Source of the DNA: Ruthenibacterium lactatiformans
GTDB lineage: Bacteria > Actinomycetota > Coriobacteriia > Coriobacteriales > QAMH01
NCBI GenBank assembly: GCA_963614215.1
Contig: CAVECB010000002.1
Span: 18,055 to 82,054 of the forward strand
Length of the DNA: 64,000 bases
Reading direction: 5' to 3'
Within the stretch, counting starts at the first letter, position 1. Each line of letters begins with the position of its first letter. Of this stretch, positions 42,831-46,985 are shown piece after piece. The notes under the pieces were generated by a model. That model ran no database searches. It had not been told where the DNA came from and was given only the letters and a program-made list of their open reading frames with translations. A program made the position numbers and the translations under genes.

Positions 42831-44759
42831 CTACACCTGCGCCTTTCGCAATATGTCGGCAAAAGCCTCGACGGACATGGCGCCCAAGTCGCCCTCGTGG
42901 CGCTCGCGCACGGCCACCTCGCCGGCCTCCACCTCCTTGTCGCCCAAGACGAGCATGTAAGGAATCTTTTGCTGCTGGGCCTTGGCAATCTTTACCCGCA
43001 TGGGCTCGTTTTGGCCGTAAATCTCGACACGGCCGCCCGCCTCGCGCAAACGCGCCTGCAGCTCGCGCGCCGGCTGCTCGTGTCTATCGGCGATGGGGAT
43101 GATGGCGGCCTGTACGGGGGCAAGCCACAGCGGCAAATTGCCCGTCGTGTGCTCGATAAGGATGCCGAGGAAGCGCTCGATGGAGCCGAAGAGCGCGCGA
43201 TGCAGCATCCACGGACGCTCGGAGCTGTTCTCCGCTGTGCGGTAGACAATGTCGAAGCGCTCGGGCAGGTTGAAGTCCACCTGCACGGTCGAGCATTGCC
43301 ACCAGCGGCCGATGGCGTCTTTGACCTTGATGTCGATTTTCGGCCCGTAAAAGGCGCCGTCGCCTTCGTTGATCTCGTAGGGGATGCCGCGCCGCTCGAT
43401 GGCCTGGCGCAAAAAGCTCTCGGCCTTCTCCCACATATCGTCGGTGCCGATGGACTTCTCTGGGCGCGTCGATATCTCGGCGGCGTACTCGAAGCCGAAC
43501 TCGCCCATGATGTGGTCGGCCAGATCGAGGATGGCGCACACCTCGTCGACCACCTGGTCTTCACGGCAAAACACATGCGCGTCGTCTTGGGTGAACCCGC
43601 GCGCGCGCATCAGGCCGTGCACCGCGCCGGACAGCTCGTGGCGATACACCGTGCCGAACTCGAAGTAGCGTATGGGCATCTCGCGGTAGCTGTGGATGTC
43701 GTTTTTGTACAAGATGACGTGCCCGGGGCAGTTCATAGGCTTGACCCCGTACTCGGTGGCAGTCGGGTTGTCCTCGGAACCCTCGTTGATGTTGAAGAAG
43801 TACATGTTGTCGCGGTAGTAGCCGTAGTGACCAGAGGTCTTCCACACGTCGGCCTTGTAGATGTGCGGGGTGATGACCTCCTCGTAGCCGCGGCGGTACA
43901 GCTCGCGGCGCAGCCACTCCTGCAGCAGGCGGATGACGCGCGCGCCAGCCGGCAGATACAACGGCAGGCCAACGCCGGCCCGATCGTCCATCATGTAAAT
44001 GCCCAGCTCGCGGCCGAGCTTGCGGTGGTCGCGTTTTTCGGCCTCCTCCAGACGCGTGAGGTAGGCCTTCAGGTCCTTCTTGGAAAACCACGCGGTGCCG
44101 TAGATGCGCTGGAGCATCTCGCGCTCGCTGTCGCCGCGCCAGTAGGCGCCCGCCACCTTCATCAGCTTGAAGGCCTTGGCATCAATCATGCCCGCGCGCG
44201 CAACGTGCGGACCGGAGCACAGGTCCACGAAGTCGCCATGGCGATAGACGGTGATGGCGGTGTCGTCGTCGAAGTCGTCGATGTGCTCGAGCTTGAAGCG
44301 CTGGTCCTTGAAAATCTCCTTGGCCTGCGCGCGCGTGACGACCTCGCGCACGAACGGCTCGTCTTTGGCGACGATCTCGCGCATCTTGGCCTCGATGGCC
44401 TCGAAGTCGTCTTGGTTCACGGGGCGCGACAGCTCGAAATCGTAGAAGAAGCCGTCGTCGGTCTGCGGGCCGAAGGCAATTTGCGCGCCCGAAAAGAGGC
44501 TTTGCACGGCCTCGGCCATGATATGCGCGCAGCTGTGGCGCATGATACCTAGGCCTTCAGGCGAGCGGCTCGTGATGATCTCGATGGCGTCGCCGTCTTC
44601 GAGCGTGGCCGCAAGGTCGGCAAACTCGCCGTTTACCTTGCCCGCGAGAGCCGCTTTGGCAAGGCCTGCCCCGATAGAGGCGGCGGCATCTGCTAGCGTC
44701 GCGCCCTGTTCCAGCTCGCGCTTGGACCCGTCCGGCAGTACAACTTCGATGGTGCTCAT
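42831..44759 (-). CDS. thrS: Threonine--tRNA ligase
   Basis: 642 aa. N-terminal TGS domain, editing-domain HSCAH, and class II core (FRLEHI..., HRALFGSIERF). Confidence 0.9.
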   Translation of the reverse strand: MSTIEVVLPDGSKRELEQGATLADAAASIGAGLAKAALAGKVNGEFADLAATLEDGDAIEIITSRSPEGLGIMRHSCAHIMAEAVQSLFSGAQIAFGPQTDDGFFYDFELSRPVNQDDFEAIEAKMREIVAKDEPFVREVVTRAQAKEIFKDQRFKLEHIDDFDDDTAITVYRHGDFVDLCSGPHVARAGMIDAKAFKLMKVAGAYWRGDSEREMLQRIYGTAWFSKKDLKAYLTRLEEAEKRDHRKLGRELGIYMMDDRAGVGLPLYLPAGARVIRLLQEWLRRELYRRGYEEVITPHIYKADVWKTSGHYGYYRDNMYFFNINEGSEDNPTATEYGVKPMNCPGHVILYKNDIHSYREMPIRYFEFGTVYRHELSGAVHGLMRARGFTQDDAHVFCREDQVVDEVCAILDLADHIMGEFGFEYAAEISTRPEKSIGTDDMWEKAESFLRQAIERRGIPYEINEGDGAFYGPKIDIKVKDAIGRWWQCSTVQVDFNLPERFDIVYRTAENSSERPWMLHRALFGSIERFLGILIEHTTGNLPLWLAPVQAAIIPIADRHEQPARELQARLREAGGRVEIYGQNEPMRVKIAKAQQQKIPYMLVLGDKEVEAGEVAVRERHEGDLGAMSVEAFADILRKAQV

Positions 44760-44780
44760 AGTGCTTCCTTTCCGCCCTGC

Positions 44781-44832
44781 CTCGGCTACAAACCGAGTGG
44801 GACTTTTCCTAGCGGCTCGGCCACAAACCGAG
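44781..44832 (-). promoter_or_regulatory. Two anticodon-arm-like hairpins in the thrS 5' leader
   Basis: On the minus strand: CUCGG-UUUGUGG-CCGAG (44832-44816) and CUCGG-UUUGUAG-CCGAG (44797-44781). Each has a 5-bp stem and a 7-nt loop with UGU at loop positions 3-5. The proximal hairpin ends 21 nt before the AUG, next to the SD. Confidence 0.55.
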
Positions 44833-44897
44833 TCTGCTGCCTGAAACGCCGCGACGGGGGCGGGTGAAGCCTTCGCGCGCGGCGCGTAAAACCGTGG

Positions 44898-45554
44898 TTA
44901 TTTGGACGTGCGCGCCTTGGACTGGGCAGAAGAGGCGCCCGCGGGCTTTTTCGCCTGGCGCGAGCCCCCTTTGCGCCCGCCAGCCGCACCCTGCGACGCG
45001 CCTTGGCCGCCAGACGAGGAGGCACCAGACGACGGGTGCTTTTTCGTCGACGTTGAAGACGGGGCCTTCTTTGCAGGTGCCTTCTGGGCATGCGAGGAGC
45101 CGCCGCGCTGGGCGGGCGGGGTAGCGGCGCCCACGGGCTGCGTGCAATACGGGCACATGGTCCAGGCGGGGTCGAGGGTGCGGCCGCAGCGCGTGCAGCG
45201 ATTGCGCAGCTGGTGGTGGCAGCACGGGCAGACGACGAAATCTTTTTGGGAAGGATAGCCGCAGTGCGGGCAGTCCGAATATTCGTCGAGCTGGCGCTGG
45301 AGCAGATCGAGCTGCATGTACTGCTCGTCGCGGTCGAGAACCGTCATGGGCGGGCGCAGCAGGCAGTAGGCCACAAGACCTGCCACCGGGATGATGGCGA
45401 TGACGGCCCACATGACGGCCGGCGCATTGCGCTCGCGCGCGTCGCGGAAGACCCAAACGATGCAGAGCAGGTAGAGCATGATGACGACGATGGTGACGAC
45501 CGCCAAGGCGATCTGCACCGGAAGGCTGAACATCTGGGTGAGTATCTCGCTCAT
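44898..45554 (-). CDS. Membrane protein with a double zinc-ribbon domain and a basic C-terminal tail
   Basis: 218 aa from the ATG at 45554 (AAGGGG RBS). It has two TM helices (a PLD-N-like VWVFRDARERN segment), then CPHCG...CPCCH...CTRCG...CPYC. Confidence 0.6.
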   Translation of the reverse strand: MSEILTQMFSLPVQIALAVVTIVVIMLYLLCIVWVFRDARERNAPAVMWAVIAIIPVAGLVAYCLLRPPMTVLDRDEQYMQLDLLQRQLDEYSDCPHCGYPSQKDFVVCPCCHHQLRNRCTRCGRTLDPAWTMCPYCTQPVGAATPPAQRGGSSHAQKAPAKKAPSSTSTKKHPSSGASSSGGQGASQGAAGGRKGGSRQAKKPAGASSAQSKARTSK

Positions 45555-45641
45555 CGAAACCCCTTGTTTCACGTTGTTCGCTGTTGCATGCCGCGCGCGG
45601 GCGCGGTTCCGCGAAATTCTAGCACCAAACACGCGCGGCAA

Positions 45642-46985
45642 CTACGCGCACACAAGACGCTTCACCTCGCCTGCAACGGTGATGGAGCCGGTGGCGAGTA
45701 CGGGCGTGTCCGCGAGCATCGAAAGCGCGGCTACGATGTCGGGCGCCTCGGTGGGCATGCGGCCCGTTTCGGCAGCGACGAGGGCGGCAAGCTCGTGCGG
45801 GCAAAGCGAGCGCGGCGAGGAGCTGCGCGTGACCACGATATCGGTGAACAGCGGCGCAAGCTCGTGCACGATGCCGGCGGCGTCCTTGTCTGCGAGTATG
45901 CCGAGCAGCAGCGTCGGCATGGGGGGCTTGAAGCGGGCGACCAGCTCTTTTGCAAGCACAGCAGCGGATTGGGGGTTGTGCGCCGCGTCGATAACGAGGA
46001 GCGGGTCTTCGCGCAGGCACTCGAAGCGCCCCGGGATAGAAAGGCCGCAAAGCGCGCGCGAGACCTGCGGCAACGCAGCGATTGAAATCCCGAAAAACGC
46101 CTGCGCCGCCTTCAGCGCCGTCGCGATGTTGGGGCGCTGGTAGGACGGAAACGACGAGGCGGCGCCCGGGTCGGCGAGCAGCCTTAAGTCGGCGGGACAG
46201 GCATCCATCACGGGGGCGTCCACCTCGCGGGCGCGGGCTGCAAACAGCTCGCGGCAGGCGATGCCGTCTGCAAGCACGGCCACAGAGCCCGGTTTGATGA
46301 TGGCCGCCTTTTCTGCCGCGATCTGCTCTACGGTGTCGCCTAGGACACGCGTATGGTCGAGACCCACCCCCGTCAGCACGGCGACGGCCGGGTCTGCCAC
46401 GCTCGTCGCGTCCCACCTGCCCCCAAGACCACATTCGAGCACGGCGGCGCCGACGCCTTCCTCGGCAAACCACCACAGGGCCGCCGCCGTCAAAAGCTCG
46501 AACTCTGTCGGGGCGACACTACAGCTCTTCCCTGCCGCCACGGCCGCGTCGATGGCCTCGGCAAAAGCGATATCTGAAATCGCGCGCACGTGCCCGTCGC
46601 TGCCCTCGAAGATTTTCATACGCTCGTTGTAGCAGGTAAGCCCAGGCGAGGTATAAAGGCCAACCTTCGCGGGCGCCTCGAGGAGCGTGCCCGCGCCGGA
46701 CAAGGGCGCACCGGACAGACCTGCGCCCCCTTCACCGCAACACGCATCCGCGCACGCCTGCACAAGCGCAGCCGTCATATGCGCCGTCGAGGTCTTGCCG
46801 TTCGTGCCCGCCACCTGCAGGCACGCATAGCTTTTCTGCGGGTCGCCCATGTATGCGCACATGCGCGTGATGGGGTCCAACGACAAGTCCATGCCAAAGC
46901 GCAGCGCCTCGCGCAAGGTCGCGCATGCCCGCTCGTAATCCAAGTTCGCCTGCAACCCCGCGCGCTCCTTTTTCGCTTGCCGCAA
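45642..46985 (-). CDS. folC: Folylpolyglutamate synthase / dihydrofolate synthase
   Basis: VAGTNGKTST P-loop with Mur-ligase-type architecture; 447 aa. Confidence 0.8.
   Translation of the reverse strand: MRQAKKERAGLQANLDYERACATLREALRFGMDLSLDPITRMCAYMGDPQKSYACLQVAGTNGKTSTAHMTAALVQACADACCGEGGAGLSGAPLSGAGTLLEAPAKVGLYTSPGLTCYNERMKIFEGSDGHVRAISDIAFAEAIDAAVAAGKSCSVAPTEFELLTAAALWWFAEEGVGAAVLECGLGGRWDATSVADPAVAVLTGVGLDHTRVLGDTVEQIAAEKAAIIKPGSVAVLADGIACRELFAARAREVDAPVMDACPADLRLLADPGAASSFPSYQRPNIATALKAAQAFFGISIAALPQVSRALCGLSIPGRFECLREDPLLVIDAAHNPQSAAVLAKELVARFKPPMPTLLLGILADKDAAGIVHELAPLFTDIVVTRSSSPRSLCPHELAALVAAETGRMPTEAPDIVAALSMLADTPVLATGSITVAGEVKRLVCA

What the first reader, a model, noticed from the sequence alone, without database searches (positions are those of the whole stretch)
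44760..44897. Two tRNA-Thr anticodon-arm mimics in the thrS leader (candidate ThrRS autoregulatory operator)
The leader between the upstream stop (44898) and the thrS ATG (44759) is 138 nt long. On the coding strand it carries two near-identical hairpins: CUCGG-UUUGUGG-CCGAG (44832-44816) and CUCGG-UUUGUAG-CCGAG (44797-44781).

Each hairpin has exactly a 5-bp stem and a 7-nt loop, which is anticodon-arm geometry. U sits at loop position 2 (the U33 equivalent), and UGU, a threonine anticodon, sits at positions 3-5. G35 and U36 are the ThrRS identity nucleotides. The proximal loop also has A at the position-37 equivalent.

An 18-nt linker separates the two hairpins. The proximal one ends 21 nt before the AUG, directly upstream of the GGAAAGGAAG Shine-Dalgarno sequence.

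This is the architecture of the E. coli thrS translational operator: two anticodon-arm-like domains, a single-stranded linker, and an adjacent RBS. Firmicutes use T-boxes instead. I know of no description of such an operator in high-GC Gram-positive bacteria.
Basis: partly seen in the sequence, partly recalled or inferred. Interest (0 to 1): 0.62.

Follow-up and report, generated by a model that had tools for sequence, protein, structure and literature searches.

The report
tRNA-Thr anticodon mimics before thrS
The mRNA leader of the threonyl-tRNA synthetase gene carries two hairpins that imitate the anticodon arm of threonine tRNA, the same design is kept with compensating mutations in most Coriobacteriia sampled, and it looks like an independent copy of the textbook E. 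coli trick by which this enzyme shuts off its own translation.

Summary
Two hairpins, CUCGG-UUUGUGG-CCGAG and CUCGG-UUUGUAG-CCGAG, lie in the 138-nt leader of a genuine thrS gene, and the proximal one ends 21 nt before the AUG.

They are not chance. 41 of 52 Coriobacteriia thrS leaders, this window included, have such a hairpin starting 35-44 nt before the start codon. None of 28 outgroup thrS loci has one.

Stem sequences differ between lineages (16 types) but stay complementary. In Eggerthellaceae 7 of 9 pairs show compensatory changes. The loop keeps U-(U/C)-(U/C)-G-U followed by two variable bases, giving UGU or CGU, both threonine anticodons.

A short lower stem with G·U pairs abuts the Shine-Dalgarno sequence. 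The same detector finds E. coli operator domain 2 (GAUCU-UUCGUGU-GGGUC) at -40, with the same two-tier fold.

The local ThrRS keeps the N-terminal domains and the anticodon-reading residues D549, N575, E600 and R609 (E. coli numbering).

Best reading: a ThrRS-binding translational operator, functionally like E. coli's but not demonstrably homologous. It is absent from Rfam and I found it in no searchable paper. Binding, repression and the transcription start are untested.

The parts
42831..44759 (-). thrS, threonyl-tRNA synthetase, 642 aa; the regulated gene and the proposed regulator
   Evidence: ORF. Pfam finds TGS, tRNA_SAD, tRNA-synt_2b and HGTP_anticodon. It matches E. coli ThrRS 1QF6 at E=5e-182. 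D549, N575, E600 and R609 (E. coli numbering) are conserved as D558, N584, E609 and R618; R583 is Ala and R589 is Lys.
44764..44773 (-). Shine-Dalgarno region GGAAAGGAAG; unpaired in the predicted fold
   Evidence: Sequence. The family consensus is (G/A)GAAAGGAA. It is unpaired in the minimum-free-energy fold of the unit.
44774..44803 (-). Proximal two-tier unit. Lower stem GUCC/GGGC (44803-44800 with 44777-44774, including a U·G pair), internal loop, and upper anticodon-arm mimic.
   Evidence: RNAalifold predicts it on an unselected MAFFT alignment of 18 leaders. The single-sequence fold agrees. The lower stem is invariant in this subfamily. The equivalent lower stem covaries in Eggerthellaceae.
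44781..44797 (-). Proximal anticodon-arm mimic CUCGG-UUUGUAG-CCGAG. The G35/U36 equivalents are at 44789/44788.
   Evidence: An orthologous hairpin starts at -35 to -44 in 41 of 52 Coriobacteriia leaders. E. coli domain 2 is at -40.
44798..44815 (-). 18-nt linker CCGCUAGGAAAAGUCCCA. Its ends are predicted to join the lower stems, leaving about 8 purine-rich unpaired nt.
   Evidence: AAG immediately 5' of GUCCC is invariant in this subfamily, for no known reason.
44816..44832 (-). Distal anticodon-arm mimic CUCGG-UUUGUGG-CCGAG. With its irregular lower stem the unit spans about 44838-44811.
   Evidence: A second, distal copy is present in 19 of the 41 motif-bearing leaders. It has its own stem variants, such as CUUGG/CCAAG, and loop UCUGUCU.
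44847..44884 (-). GC-rich hairpin CGCCGCG/CGCGGCG followed by UUU, 14 nt upstream of the distal mimic. It may be the weak terminator of the upstream gene or a 5' leader hairpin. Whether it belongs to the element is uncertain.
   Evidence: Sequence. It was not flagged as a terminator in the window. The equivalent hairpin in L015 was flagged.

Best explanation
The thrS leader is a ThrRS-responsive translational operator built from mimics of the tRNA-Thr anticodon arm.

Each unit is a 5-bp stem capped by a 7-nt loop. Loop positions 3-5 read UGU, or CGU in some relatives. These are threonine anticodons carrying the ThrRS identity bases G35 and U36. The proximal unit stands on a short lower stem whose 3' strand runs straight into the Shine-Dalgarno sequence.

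Proposed mechanism: when ThrRS exceeds what uncharged tRNA-Thr can occupy, its C-terminal anticodon-binding domain docks on the loop. The bulk of the enzyme then blocks 30S binding at the SD and AUG 21 nt downstream, so thrS translation falls. tRNA-Thr competes for the same site and relieves repression. The distal copy, where present, offers a second site for the other subunit of the dimer or simply adds avidity.

What is shown: the structure, its conservation and covariation, its fixed register to the start codon, its specificity to thrS, and its geometric identity with E. coli domain 2.

What is inferred: that ThrRS is the ligand, that the effect is translational repression by competition, and that the hairpins lie in the transcript.
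For: 1. The structure is real and selected.
   - RNAalifold on unselected alignments predicts the same lower stem, internal loop, 5-bp stem and 7-nt loop in both subfamilies.
   - In Eggerthellaceae 7 of 9 pairs show double changes. 93% of cells are paired, against 25-50% when the partner is slid, and 0 of 500 shuffles reach the observed value.
   - Pooled over 47 distinct units there are 16 stem types, and all 5 pairs vary compensatorily.
2. The loop is constrained like an anticodon loop. Position 1 is U in 43 of 47 units, position 2 is U/C in 46, and position 3 is U in 43 and C in 4. Positions 6-7 are free. GU at positions 4-5 was a search criterion, but it is also invariant in the unselected alignments and in the 12 thrS leaders recovered by a pattern that left the whole hairpin free.
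3. It is specific to thrS.
   - 41 of 52 Coriobacteriia leaders have it, and 0 of 28 outgroup thrS loci do.
   - A covariance model of the Eggerthellaceae unit hits only thrS leaders in 620 kb: 20 hits at E<1e-6, with the next hit at 18.8 bits.
   - The background rate of such hairpins is 0.42 per kb, against 6.1 per kb in the 200 nt upstream of thrS.
4. The register is fixed. The hairpin starts at -35 to -44, most often -38. E. coli domain 2, GAUCU-UUCGUGU-GGGUC, is found by the same detector at -40. It has the same fold: lower stem, asymmetric internal loop, upper stem and free SD.
5. G·U pairs point to the sense RNA rather than to DNA. One is invariant in the lower stem of this subfamily; others occur in L016 and L046.
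6. The enzyme is competent. The N-terminal domains are present; in E. coli these are needed for control (PMC7373986). D549, N575, E600 and R609 are conserved. The roles of D549 and N575 are taken from PMC4756836. The mapping of E600 and R609 onto the MST1 residues that read G35 and U36 is my inference from their spacing.
7. In E. coli the same kind of mimic is known to bind ThrRS and block the 30S subunit (PMC7373986, PMC9976931, PMC3858243).
Against: - There is no experimental datum for any Coriobacteriia leader.
- The transcription start is unknown. No sigma-70-like promoter was found next to the hairpins. In several relatives a terminator-like hairpin lies only 10-20 nt upstream, so thrS is probably expressed by read-through from the upstream gene.
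- Loop position 2, the U33 equivalent, is C in 10 of 47 units. Positions 37-38 are not tRNA-like. The ThrRS residues that contact bases 37 and 38 in E. coli are changed: R583 to Ala and R589 to Lys.
- In Eggerthellaceae the two units are only about 3 unpaired nt apart. That may be too close for one dimer to hold both loops. This is an inference, not a calculation.
- 11 of 52 relatives lack the element.
- The SD is strong, unlike the weak E. coli thrS SD. This could weaken a pure competition mechanism.
- Single-sequence folding energies are not exceptional, with z-scores of -0.4 to -1.3.
- The window's own subfamily shows little variation, with 1 of 9 pairs showing a double change. The covariation evidence therefore comes mostly from sister lineages.
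Confidence: 0.7

Rival explanations
1. The element is a conserved structured leader that does not bind ThrRS. It could be an mRNA-stabilising or processing hairpin, or the binding site of another protein, and the UGU loop is kept for that partner.
For: The structure and conservation do not by themselves name the ligand. Positions 33, 37 and 38 deviate from tRNA. Hairpins near 5' ends or after terminators can act as stability elements.
Against: The element occurs only before thrS in all sequence searched. The constrained bases are exactly the threonine anticodon and ThrRS identity bases: both UGU and CGU occur, and no other triplet does. The geometry equals that of the proven ThrRS site in E. 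coli. A stability hairpin would not need a fixed 7-nt loop sequence across 16 stem types.
Confidence: 0.13
2. The hairpins act at the level of transcription, either as terminators or attenuators or as part of a terminator/antiterminator switch, rather than on translation initiation.
For: In Atopobiaceae (L046, L051) the distal mimic is a 9-bp stem CCGCUUCGG/CCGAGGCGG followed by UUUUU. Terminator-like hairpins lie just upstream of the mimics in several lineages.
Against: Neither hairpin in the window is followed by a U-tract, and no terminator was detected. The proximal unit is tied to the SD and start codon, not to a U-run. The window leader holds no upstream ORF and no T-box-like alternative structure.
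Confidence: 0.08
3. The inverted repeats are DNA operators for a dimeric transcription factor.
For: CTCGG-N7-CCGAG is a perfect palindrome present twice, upstream of a gene.
Against: Half-site sequences are not conserved while complementarity is: 16 stem types were found. The conserved part is the asymmetric spacer UUUGU. G·U pairs would be A·C mismatches on the other strand. The position is locked to the start codon, not to a promoter.
Confidence: 0.03
4. The finding is a chance duplication, a dispersed repeat of REP type, or a T-box-like tRNA sensor.
For: The two copies are nearly identical and adjacent, as a local duplication would be.
Against: There are no other copies in the 64 kb, even at 3 mismatches. 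The element is conserved at the orthologous site in 41 of 52 leaders sampled across Coriobacteriia. No Rfam T-box or other family matches at E up to 10. The loops carry the anticodon, not a Thr codon, so they cannot pair with tRNA-Thr.
Confidence: 0.02

Closest known systems
E. coli thrS translational operator (ThrRS autoregulation; domains 1-4, Springer/Romby/Moras work; structure 1KOG)
   Same: - It lies in the 5' leader of thrS.
- It has one or two stem-loops with a 5-bp stem and a 7-nt loop carrying a threonine anticodon (NGU).
- The proximal hairpin starts about 40 nt before the AUG: -40 in E. coli, -38 here.
- It stands on a lower stem through an asymmetric internal loop, and the 3' strand of that stem leads into a free SD.
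- Loop positions 37-38 are non-tRNA-like in both: GU in E. coli, AG or GG here.
   Different: - There is no detectable sequence or profile similarity. The model R1 does not hit the E. coli leader.
- The phylum is different (Actinomycetota, class Coriobacteriia), so an independent origin is likely.
- The loops are mostly UGU rather than CGU.
- Copy number varies between 1 and 2.
- The linker is short: 18 nt here, and about 3 unpaired nt in Eggerthellaceae, against a long U-rich domain 3.
- The SD is strong (AGAAAGGA), against a weak, S1-dependent SD in E. coli.
- The downstream gene is not infC.
T-box leaders of thrS/thrZ in Firmicutes (RF00230)
   Same: It is a cis-acting leader RNA that couples thrS expression to the tRNA-Thr system. 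A T-box is found on the thrS leader of the Clostridia relative L052.
   Different: A T-box binds uncharged tRNA through a specifier codon and the T-box sequence, and switches a terminator. Here there is no T-box match. The loops carry the anticodon rather than the codon, and the whole unit is about 30 nt.
Yeast AspRS mRNA and other aaRS mRNA anticodon mimics (HisRS, ThrRS-RPC10)
   Same: An aminoacyl-tRNA synthetase is proposed to recognise an anticodon-stem-loop mimic in an mRNA and to lower its translation (PMC9976931, PMC6542539, PMC9956033).
   Different: Those cases are eukaryotic, with different positions in the mRNA and other protein extensions involved. There is no SD competition.

Membership tests
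E. coli-type thrS operator (ThrRS anticodon-arm-mimic translational operator) | Located on the sense strand in the 5' leader of thrS | tested here: met
   G·U pairs show the sense strand.
E. coli-type thrS operator (ThrRS anticodon-arm-mimic translational operator) | Stem-loop with anticodon-arm geometry (5-bp stem, 7-nt loop) carrying a threonine anticodon with G35 and U36 | tested here: met
   UGU is found in 43 of 47 units and CGU in 4. E. coli domain 2 has UUCGUGU.
E. coli-type thrS operator (ThrRS anticodon-arm-mimic translational operator) | Mimic hairpin placed directly upstream of an accessible SD/AUG, so that bound enzyme can exclude the 30S subunit | tested here: met
   The hairpin starts at -38 in the window, -35 to -44 in the family and -40 in E. 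coli. The SD is unpaired in the fold.
E. coli-type thrS operator (ThrRS anticodon-arm-mimic translational operator) | Two mimic domains joined by a single-stranded linker | tested here: inconclusive
   The window has two, 18 nt apart. Only 19 of the 41 motif-bearing leaders have a second copy, and linkers are much shorter than E. coli domain 3.
E. coli-type thrS operator (ThrRS anticodon-arm-mimic translational operator) | Common descent (alignable sequence or structure profile) with the enterobacterial operator | tested here: not met
   Model R1 gives no hit on the E. coli leader L082. Rfam holds no family for either. The closest ThrRS relatives outside the class are Clostridia, Spirochaetes and Chloroflexi, and these lack the hairpin.
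E. coli-type thrS operator (ThrRS anticodon-arm-mimic translational operator) | ThrRS binds the mimic, represses translation, and is competed by tRNA-Thr | not testable with these tools
   This needs binding, toeprint and reporter assays.
E. coli-type thrS operator (ThrRS anticodon-arm-mimic translational operator) | ThrRS has the N-terminal domains needed for ribosome exclusion and the residues that read the anticodon | tested here: met
   TGS and tRNA_SAD domains are present. D549, N575, E600 and R609 are conserved; R583 is Ala and R589 is Lys (residue roles from PMC4756836).
T-box leader (RF00230) | Match to the T-box covariance model (specifier loop, T-box sequence, terminator/antiterminator) | tested here: not met
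   No match at E up to 10 in window 44000-46000. As a positive control, L052 scores 94 bits.
Intrinsic terminator or ribosome-mediated attenuator | GC hairpin followed by a U-tract; a leader peptide rich in the regulatory codon | tested here: not met
   No terminator-like site was found in 44650-45150. There is no AUG in the leader before the thrS start.

The most novel reading that the evidence does not exclude
The mimic is an independently evolved ThrRS operator found in most Coriobacteriia sampled, and evolution has rewired it in some lineages. In Atopobiaceae the distal anticodon-like loop caps a 9-bp stem followed by UUUUU. ThrRS binding there could stabilise an intrinsic terminator. That would make an aminoacyl-tRNA synthetase act as a transcription-attenuation protein, in addition to acting as a translational repressor at the proximal site.
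Probability: 0.12. Interest if true: 0.8.

Novelty: new member of a known kind. Interest (0 to 1): 0.66.

Why it matters
The E. coli thrS operator is the textbook case of a protein controlling its own translation by tRNA mimicry. I know of no bacterial example outside E. coli and its close relatives, and the reviews I read describe none; other bacteria are described as using T-boxes or nothing known.

A second, sequence-unrelated version in another phylum, with the same hairpin geometry and the same distance to the start codon, would be a natural replicate of that mechanism. It would show which features are physically required: the NGU loop, the 5-bp stem, the roughly 20-nt spacing to the AUG and the lower stem. 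It would also show which features are incidental: two domains, a long linker and a weak SD.

It would add a missing regulatory RNA family for common gut Actinomycetota such as Eggerthella, Gordonibacter, Adlercreutzia and Collinsella-like lineages. It is directly testable with standard binding and reporter assays.

Tried and rejected
- **Rfam.** A permissive scan of the leader and a gathering-threshold scan of ten loci found nothing in the leaders. The E. coli operator is not in Rfam either, so this silence says little about the kind of element.
- **Whole-leader fold.** The z-score is -0.42, which is uninformative. Single-sequence thermodynamics adds two loop-closing pairs in the window copies. 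Relatives do not keep these pairs, so the 7-nt loop is the conserved state.
- **Pooled MAFFT alignment.** MAFFT shifted one subfamily by 4 columns when all 47 units were pooled, making the alignment unusable. Pooled counts were made in register by script instead. Formal counts were made per subfamily.
- **Cross-detection by model R1.** R1, built on Eggerthellaceae units, does not detect the window subfamily or E. coli. It is too sequence-specific. It is therefore good evidence for specificity and no evidence for homology.
- **Metagenome scan.** The pattern left the hairpin unspecified. It returned only 12 thrS leaders, nearly all identical to known ones, plus 51 chance matches. It worked as a control but added little new diversity, apart from L115.
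- **tRNA search.** Neither the window nor 52 loci contain a tRNA-Thr. The comparison with the organism's own tRNA-Thr could not be made. E. coli tRNA-Thr arms (ACUGA-CUUGUAA-UCAGU and CACCC-UUGGUAA-GGGUG) served only as a generic reference.
- **Promoter scans.** None was found, so the transcription start is unresolved.
- **Rejected explanations.** Transcription-factor palindrome, dispersed repeat, T-box and leader-peptide attenuator were each considered and rejected, as set out under the rival explanations.

Full report
**1. What is in the window**

On the minus strand the sequence reads: upstream stop UAA (44900-44898), 68 nt, CUCGG-UUUGUGG-CCGAG (44832-44816), 18 nt, CUCGG-UUUGUAG-CCGAG (44797-44781), then GCAGGGCGGAAAGGAAGCACU and AUG (44759).

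The ORF 42831-44759 is a complete ThrRS. It has TGS, tRNA_SAD, class II core and HGTP_anticodon domains. It matches E. coli ThrRS 1QF6 at E=5e-182.

The upstream ORF (44898-45641) is a double-zinc-ribbon protein, and the gene downstream of thrS belongs to the aconitase family.

The window contains 19 perfect 5-bp/7-nt-loop hairpins with loop NYYGUNN on both strands together. Two of them within one 138-nt leader has a probability of about 2e-4. The motif occurs nowhere else in the window, even at 3 mismatches.

**2. Relatives**

A protein-guided scan of one genome per species returned 80 thrS loci. Of these, 51 are Coriobacteriia loci that include the 5' end of thrS. Several carry wrong bin names. 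The other 28 usable loci come from other phyla. After the start codons were fixed, the upstream regions were inspected.

- 41 of 52 Coriobacteriia leaders, the window included, have a hairpin with a 5-bp stem and a 7-nt loop of the form N-(U/C)-(U/C)-G-U-N-N. L040 has an 8-nt-loop variant. The hairpin starts 35-44 nt before the start codon, most often at -38 or -39.
- 19 leaders also have a second copy 29-38 nt further upstream.
- The 11 leaders without it mostly have thrS fused directly behind the upstream zinc-ribbon gene.
- None of the 28 outgroup loci has such a hairpin. One of them (L052, Clostridia) has a T-box.
- The density of such hairpins is 6.1 per kb in the 200 nt before thrS, against 0.42 per kb elsewhere in the same loci.

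**3. Structure and covariation**

Two subfamilies exist.

- *Type A*, the window's clade: AAGUCCC-A-CUCGG-UUUGUNN-CCGAG-(3-4 nt)-GGGC-(A/G)GAAAGGAA.
- *Type B*, Eggerthellaceae: UGC-A-GGYGC-UYUGUNN-GCRCC-CG-GCA-(n)-GAAAGGAA.

RNAalifold, run on MAFFT alignments of the last 55 nt of every leader in each subfamily with no pre-selection for pairing, predicts the same two-tier fold in both. The fold is a 4-bp lower stem, a small asymmetric internal loop, a 5-bp upper stem and a 7-nt loop.

In type B, 7 of 9 pairs show compensatory double changes. On 21 distinct units, 93% of cells are paired against 25-50% for slid partners, and no shuffle out of 500 reaches the observed covariation.

Type A is nearly invariant, with 1 of 9 pairs showing double changes. 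The case for the window's own subfamily therefore rests on comparison with sister lineages.

Pooled in register, 47 distinct units use 16 different stem sequences, and each of the five pairs changes compensatorily. Among the stems are CUCGG/CCGAG, CCCGG/CCGGG, CUUGG/CCAAG, CACGG/CCGUG, CGCGG/CCGCG, GGCGC/GCGCC, GGUGC/GCACC, GACGU/ACGUC, GACAC/GUGUC and CGGCC/GGCCG. These units were chosen because they pair, so the percentage paired is by construction. The informative facts are the diversity of stems at one orthologous position and the constant loop.

G·U pairs mark the sense RNA as the functional strand. One is an invariant U·G in the type A lower stem; others occur elsewhere.

**4. The loop**

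| Loop position | tRNA equivalent | Bases over 47 units |
|---|---|---|
| 1 | 32 | U 43, A 4 |
| 2 | 33 | U 36, C 10, A 1 |
| 3 | 34 | U 43, C 4 |
| 4-5 | 35-36 | G and U in all |
| 6-7 | 37-38 | any base |

G and U at positions 4-5 were required by the detector. They are also invariant in the unselected alignments.

They are invariant too in all 12 thrS leaders recovered from metagenomes with a pattern that fixed only the flanks, AAGUCCC...GGGCRGAAAGGA, and left the hairpin free. The 51 chance matches to that pattern lack the hairpin.

The triplets seen are UGU and CGU only, and both are threonine anticodons. Anticodon nucleotides are threonine identity elements (PMC9976931), and ThrRS structures show G35 and U36 being read specifically (PMC4756836).

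Positions 37-38 are not the AA of real tRNA-Thr. For E. coli thrU the loop is CUUGUAA and for thrT it is UUGGUAA. They are not AA in the E. coli operator either, where the loop is UUCGUGU.

**5. Comparison with E. coli**

I fetched the E. coli K-12 thrS leader. The same hairpin detector finds exactly one hit near its start codon: GAUCU-UUCGUGU-GGGUC at -40. This is operator domain 2.

Folded alone, it gives a lower stem, a 1x3 internal loop, an upper stem, a 7-nt loop and a free SD. This matches the pattern of the window's proximal unit and of a type B unit.

According to reviews, ThrRS binds two such anticodon-arm mimics upstream of the SD. Its N-terminal part then clashes with the 30S platform, and tRNA-Thr competes with the operator. 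Changing the anticodon-like triplet to the methionine one transfers control to MetRS (PMC7373986, PMC9976931). ThrRS and the 30S subunit compete for the mRNA (PMC3858243).

The window's ThrRS has the N-terminal domains. In the alignment to 1QF6 it keeps Asp549 (contacts U33) and Asn575 (contacts U32 and C34). It also keeps the DKEVE...VAVR segment containing Glu600 and Arg609. By spacing, these correspond to the MST1 residues that read G35 and U36; that mapping is my inference. Arg583 and Arg589, which contact bases 37 and 38 in E. coli, are Ala and Lys here (residue roles from PMC4756836). This fits the free positions 6-7 of the mimic.

**6. Mechanism proposed**

ThrRS that is not occupied by tRNA-Thr binds the proximal mimic through its anticodon-binding domain and sterically prevents 30S binding at the SD and AUG 21 nt downstream. 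tRNA-Thr relieves this.

The distal copy provides the second site for the dimer, or extra avidity. It is dispensable, since about half of the motif-bearing leaders lack it.

The upstream zinc-ribbon gene is syntenic across the class. No promoter-like site was found next to the hairpins. A translational operator would let thrS be tuned independently inside a read-through or polycistronic transcript.

These steps are inferred. What is demonstrated here is the RNA structure, its evolutionary constraint, its specificity for thrS, and its geometric equivalence to the proven E. coli site.

**7. Rivals**

- *Transcription-factor palindrome.* This is contradicted by changing half-sites, the conserved asymmetric spacer, the G·U pairs and the start-codon register.
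- *Terminator or attenuator.* This is not supported in the window: there is no U-tract, no upstream ORF and no terminator call. In two Atopobiaceae genomes, however, the distal mimic is a 9-bp hairpin followed by UUUUU, which leaves room for a transcriptional variant.
- *T-box.* Excluded and by logic, since the loops carry the anticodon, not the codon.
- *Another ligand, or a pure stability role.* This cannot be excluded without experiments. It does not explain why exactly the threonine identity bases are fixed before exactly this gene.

**8. Membership versus resemblance**

The element meets the functional and architectural features of the E. coli thrS operator: leader position, anticodon-arm mimic with NGU, adjacency to a free SD, and a competent ThrRS.

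It fails the only test of common descent I could run. Model R1 does not hit the E. coli leader, and the nearest ThrRS relatives outside the class lack the hairpin. I therefore describe it as working like the E. coli operator, probably by convergence, and not as a member of the same RNA family.

**9. Novelty**

Rfam 15 has no family matching either this leader or the E. coli operator. Five full-text searches found the E. coli system, yeast and human aaRS-mRNA mimics, and B. subtilis T-box work. They found nothing on a thrS operator in Coriobacteriia or other Actinomycetota. The searchable library is incomplete, so prior description in a subscription journal cannot be ruled out.

**10. Limits**

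- No Coriobacteriia tRNA-Thr was available for comparison.
- The transcription start is unknown.
- Whether closely spaced tandem units can be bound by one dimer was not modelled.

Noticed in passing
window 44847-44884 (-); L015 2888-2908; L042 and L043 upstream of the mimics: A GC-rich hairpin followed by a U-run lies 10-20 nt upstream of the first mimic in many lineages. L015 has CGCCGCGG-CAUGA-CCGCGGCG+UUUUGUAAG, which the scan flagged as terminator-like. The window version is weaker: a 7-bp stem, a 24-nt loop and UUU. There is no room for a promoter between this hairpin and the mimics, so thrS is probably expressed by read-through or from a promoter upstream of the hairpin.
   Followed up: partly
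L046 about 2760-2976 and L051 about 1765-1981 (Atopobiaceae MAGs): This is a variant leader. The distal mimic is CCGCUUCGG-UUUGUGG-CCGAGGCGG followed by UUUUU, which looks like an intrinsic terminator. The proximal mimic CGGCC-AUCGUGA-GGCCG (CGU anticodon) abuts the SD. A conserved 8-codon upstream ORF (MNRRTQTF or MNRRTQTS, two Thr codons) and alternative pairings lie upstream. This may be a transcriptional layer of control.
   Followed up: partly
L094, L107, L114, L120, L133 (metagenome contigs, 33-37% GC): A different conserved element has the same flanks by chance: AAAAAGUCCCGGUUGG-UUGAGAUA-CCRACCGGGCAGAAAGGAAAU. It is a 10-bp hairpin directly before the SD of small, unrelated ORFs. Some of these resemble DNA-binding or excisionase proteins. 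It is probably phage or mobile-element sequence.
   Followed up: no
L076 and L078, about 100-115 nt upstream of thrS: In two Fermentibacteria-like MAGs the hairpin detector picked up TTAGC-TCAGTTG-GTTAG. This is the D-arm of a tRNA gene lying just upstream of thrS.
   Followed up: no
window 44804-44806 (-) and the same position in type A relatives: The AAG immediately 5' of the lower-stem strand GUCCC is invariant in all 18 leaders of the window's subfamily. It is not part of any predicted pair, and its role is unexplained.
   Followed up: no
L026, L031, L033, L036, L047, L048: Relatives without the mimic have thrS starting within a few to a few tens of nt of the stop codon of the upstream double-zinc-ribbon gene. 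This suggests an ancestral two-gene operon into which the operator was inserted, or from which it was lost.
   Followed up: partly
L001, L003, L015, L021, L027, L044, L050 record titles: Several 'cleanbin' genome records that carry Coriobacteriia-type thrS (66-96% identity to the window) are labelled Acidaminococcaceae, Oscillibacter, Agathobacter, Bacteroidaceae, Oribacterium, Oscillospiraceae or Akkermansia. The bin taxonomy is evidently wrong.
   Followed up: no
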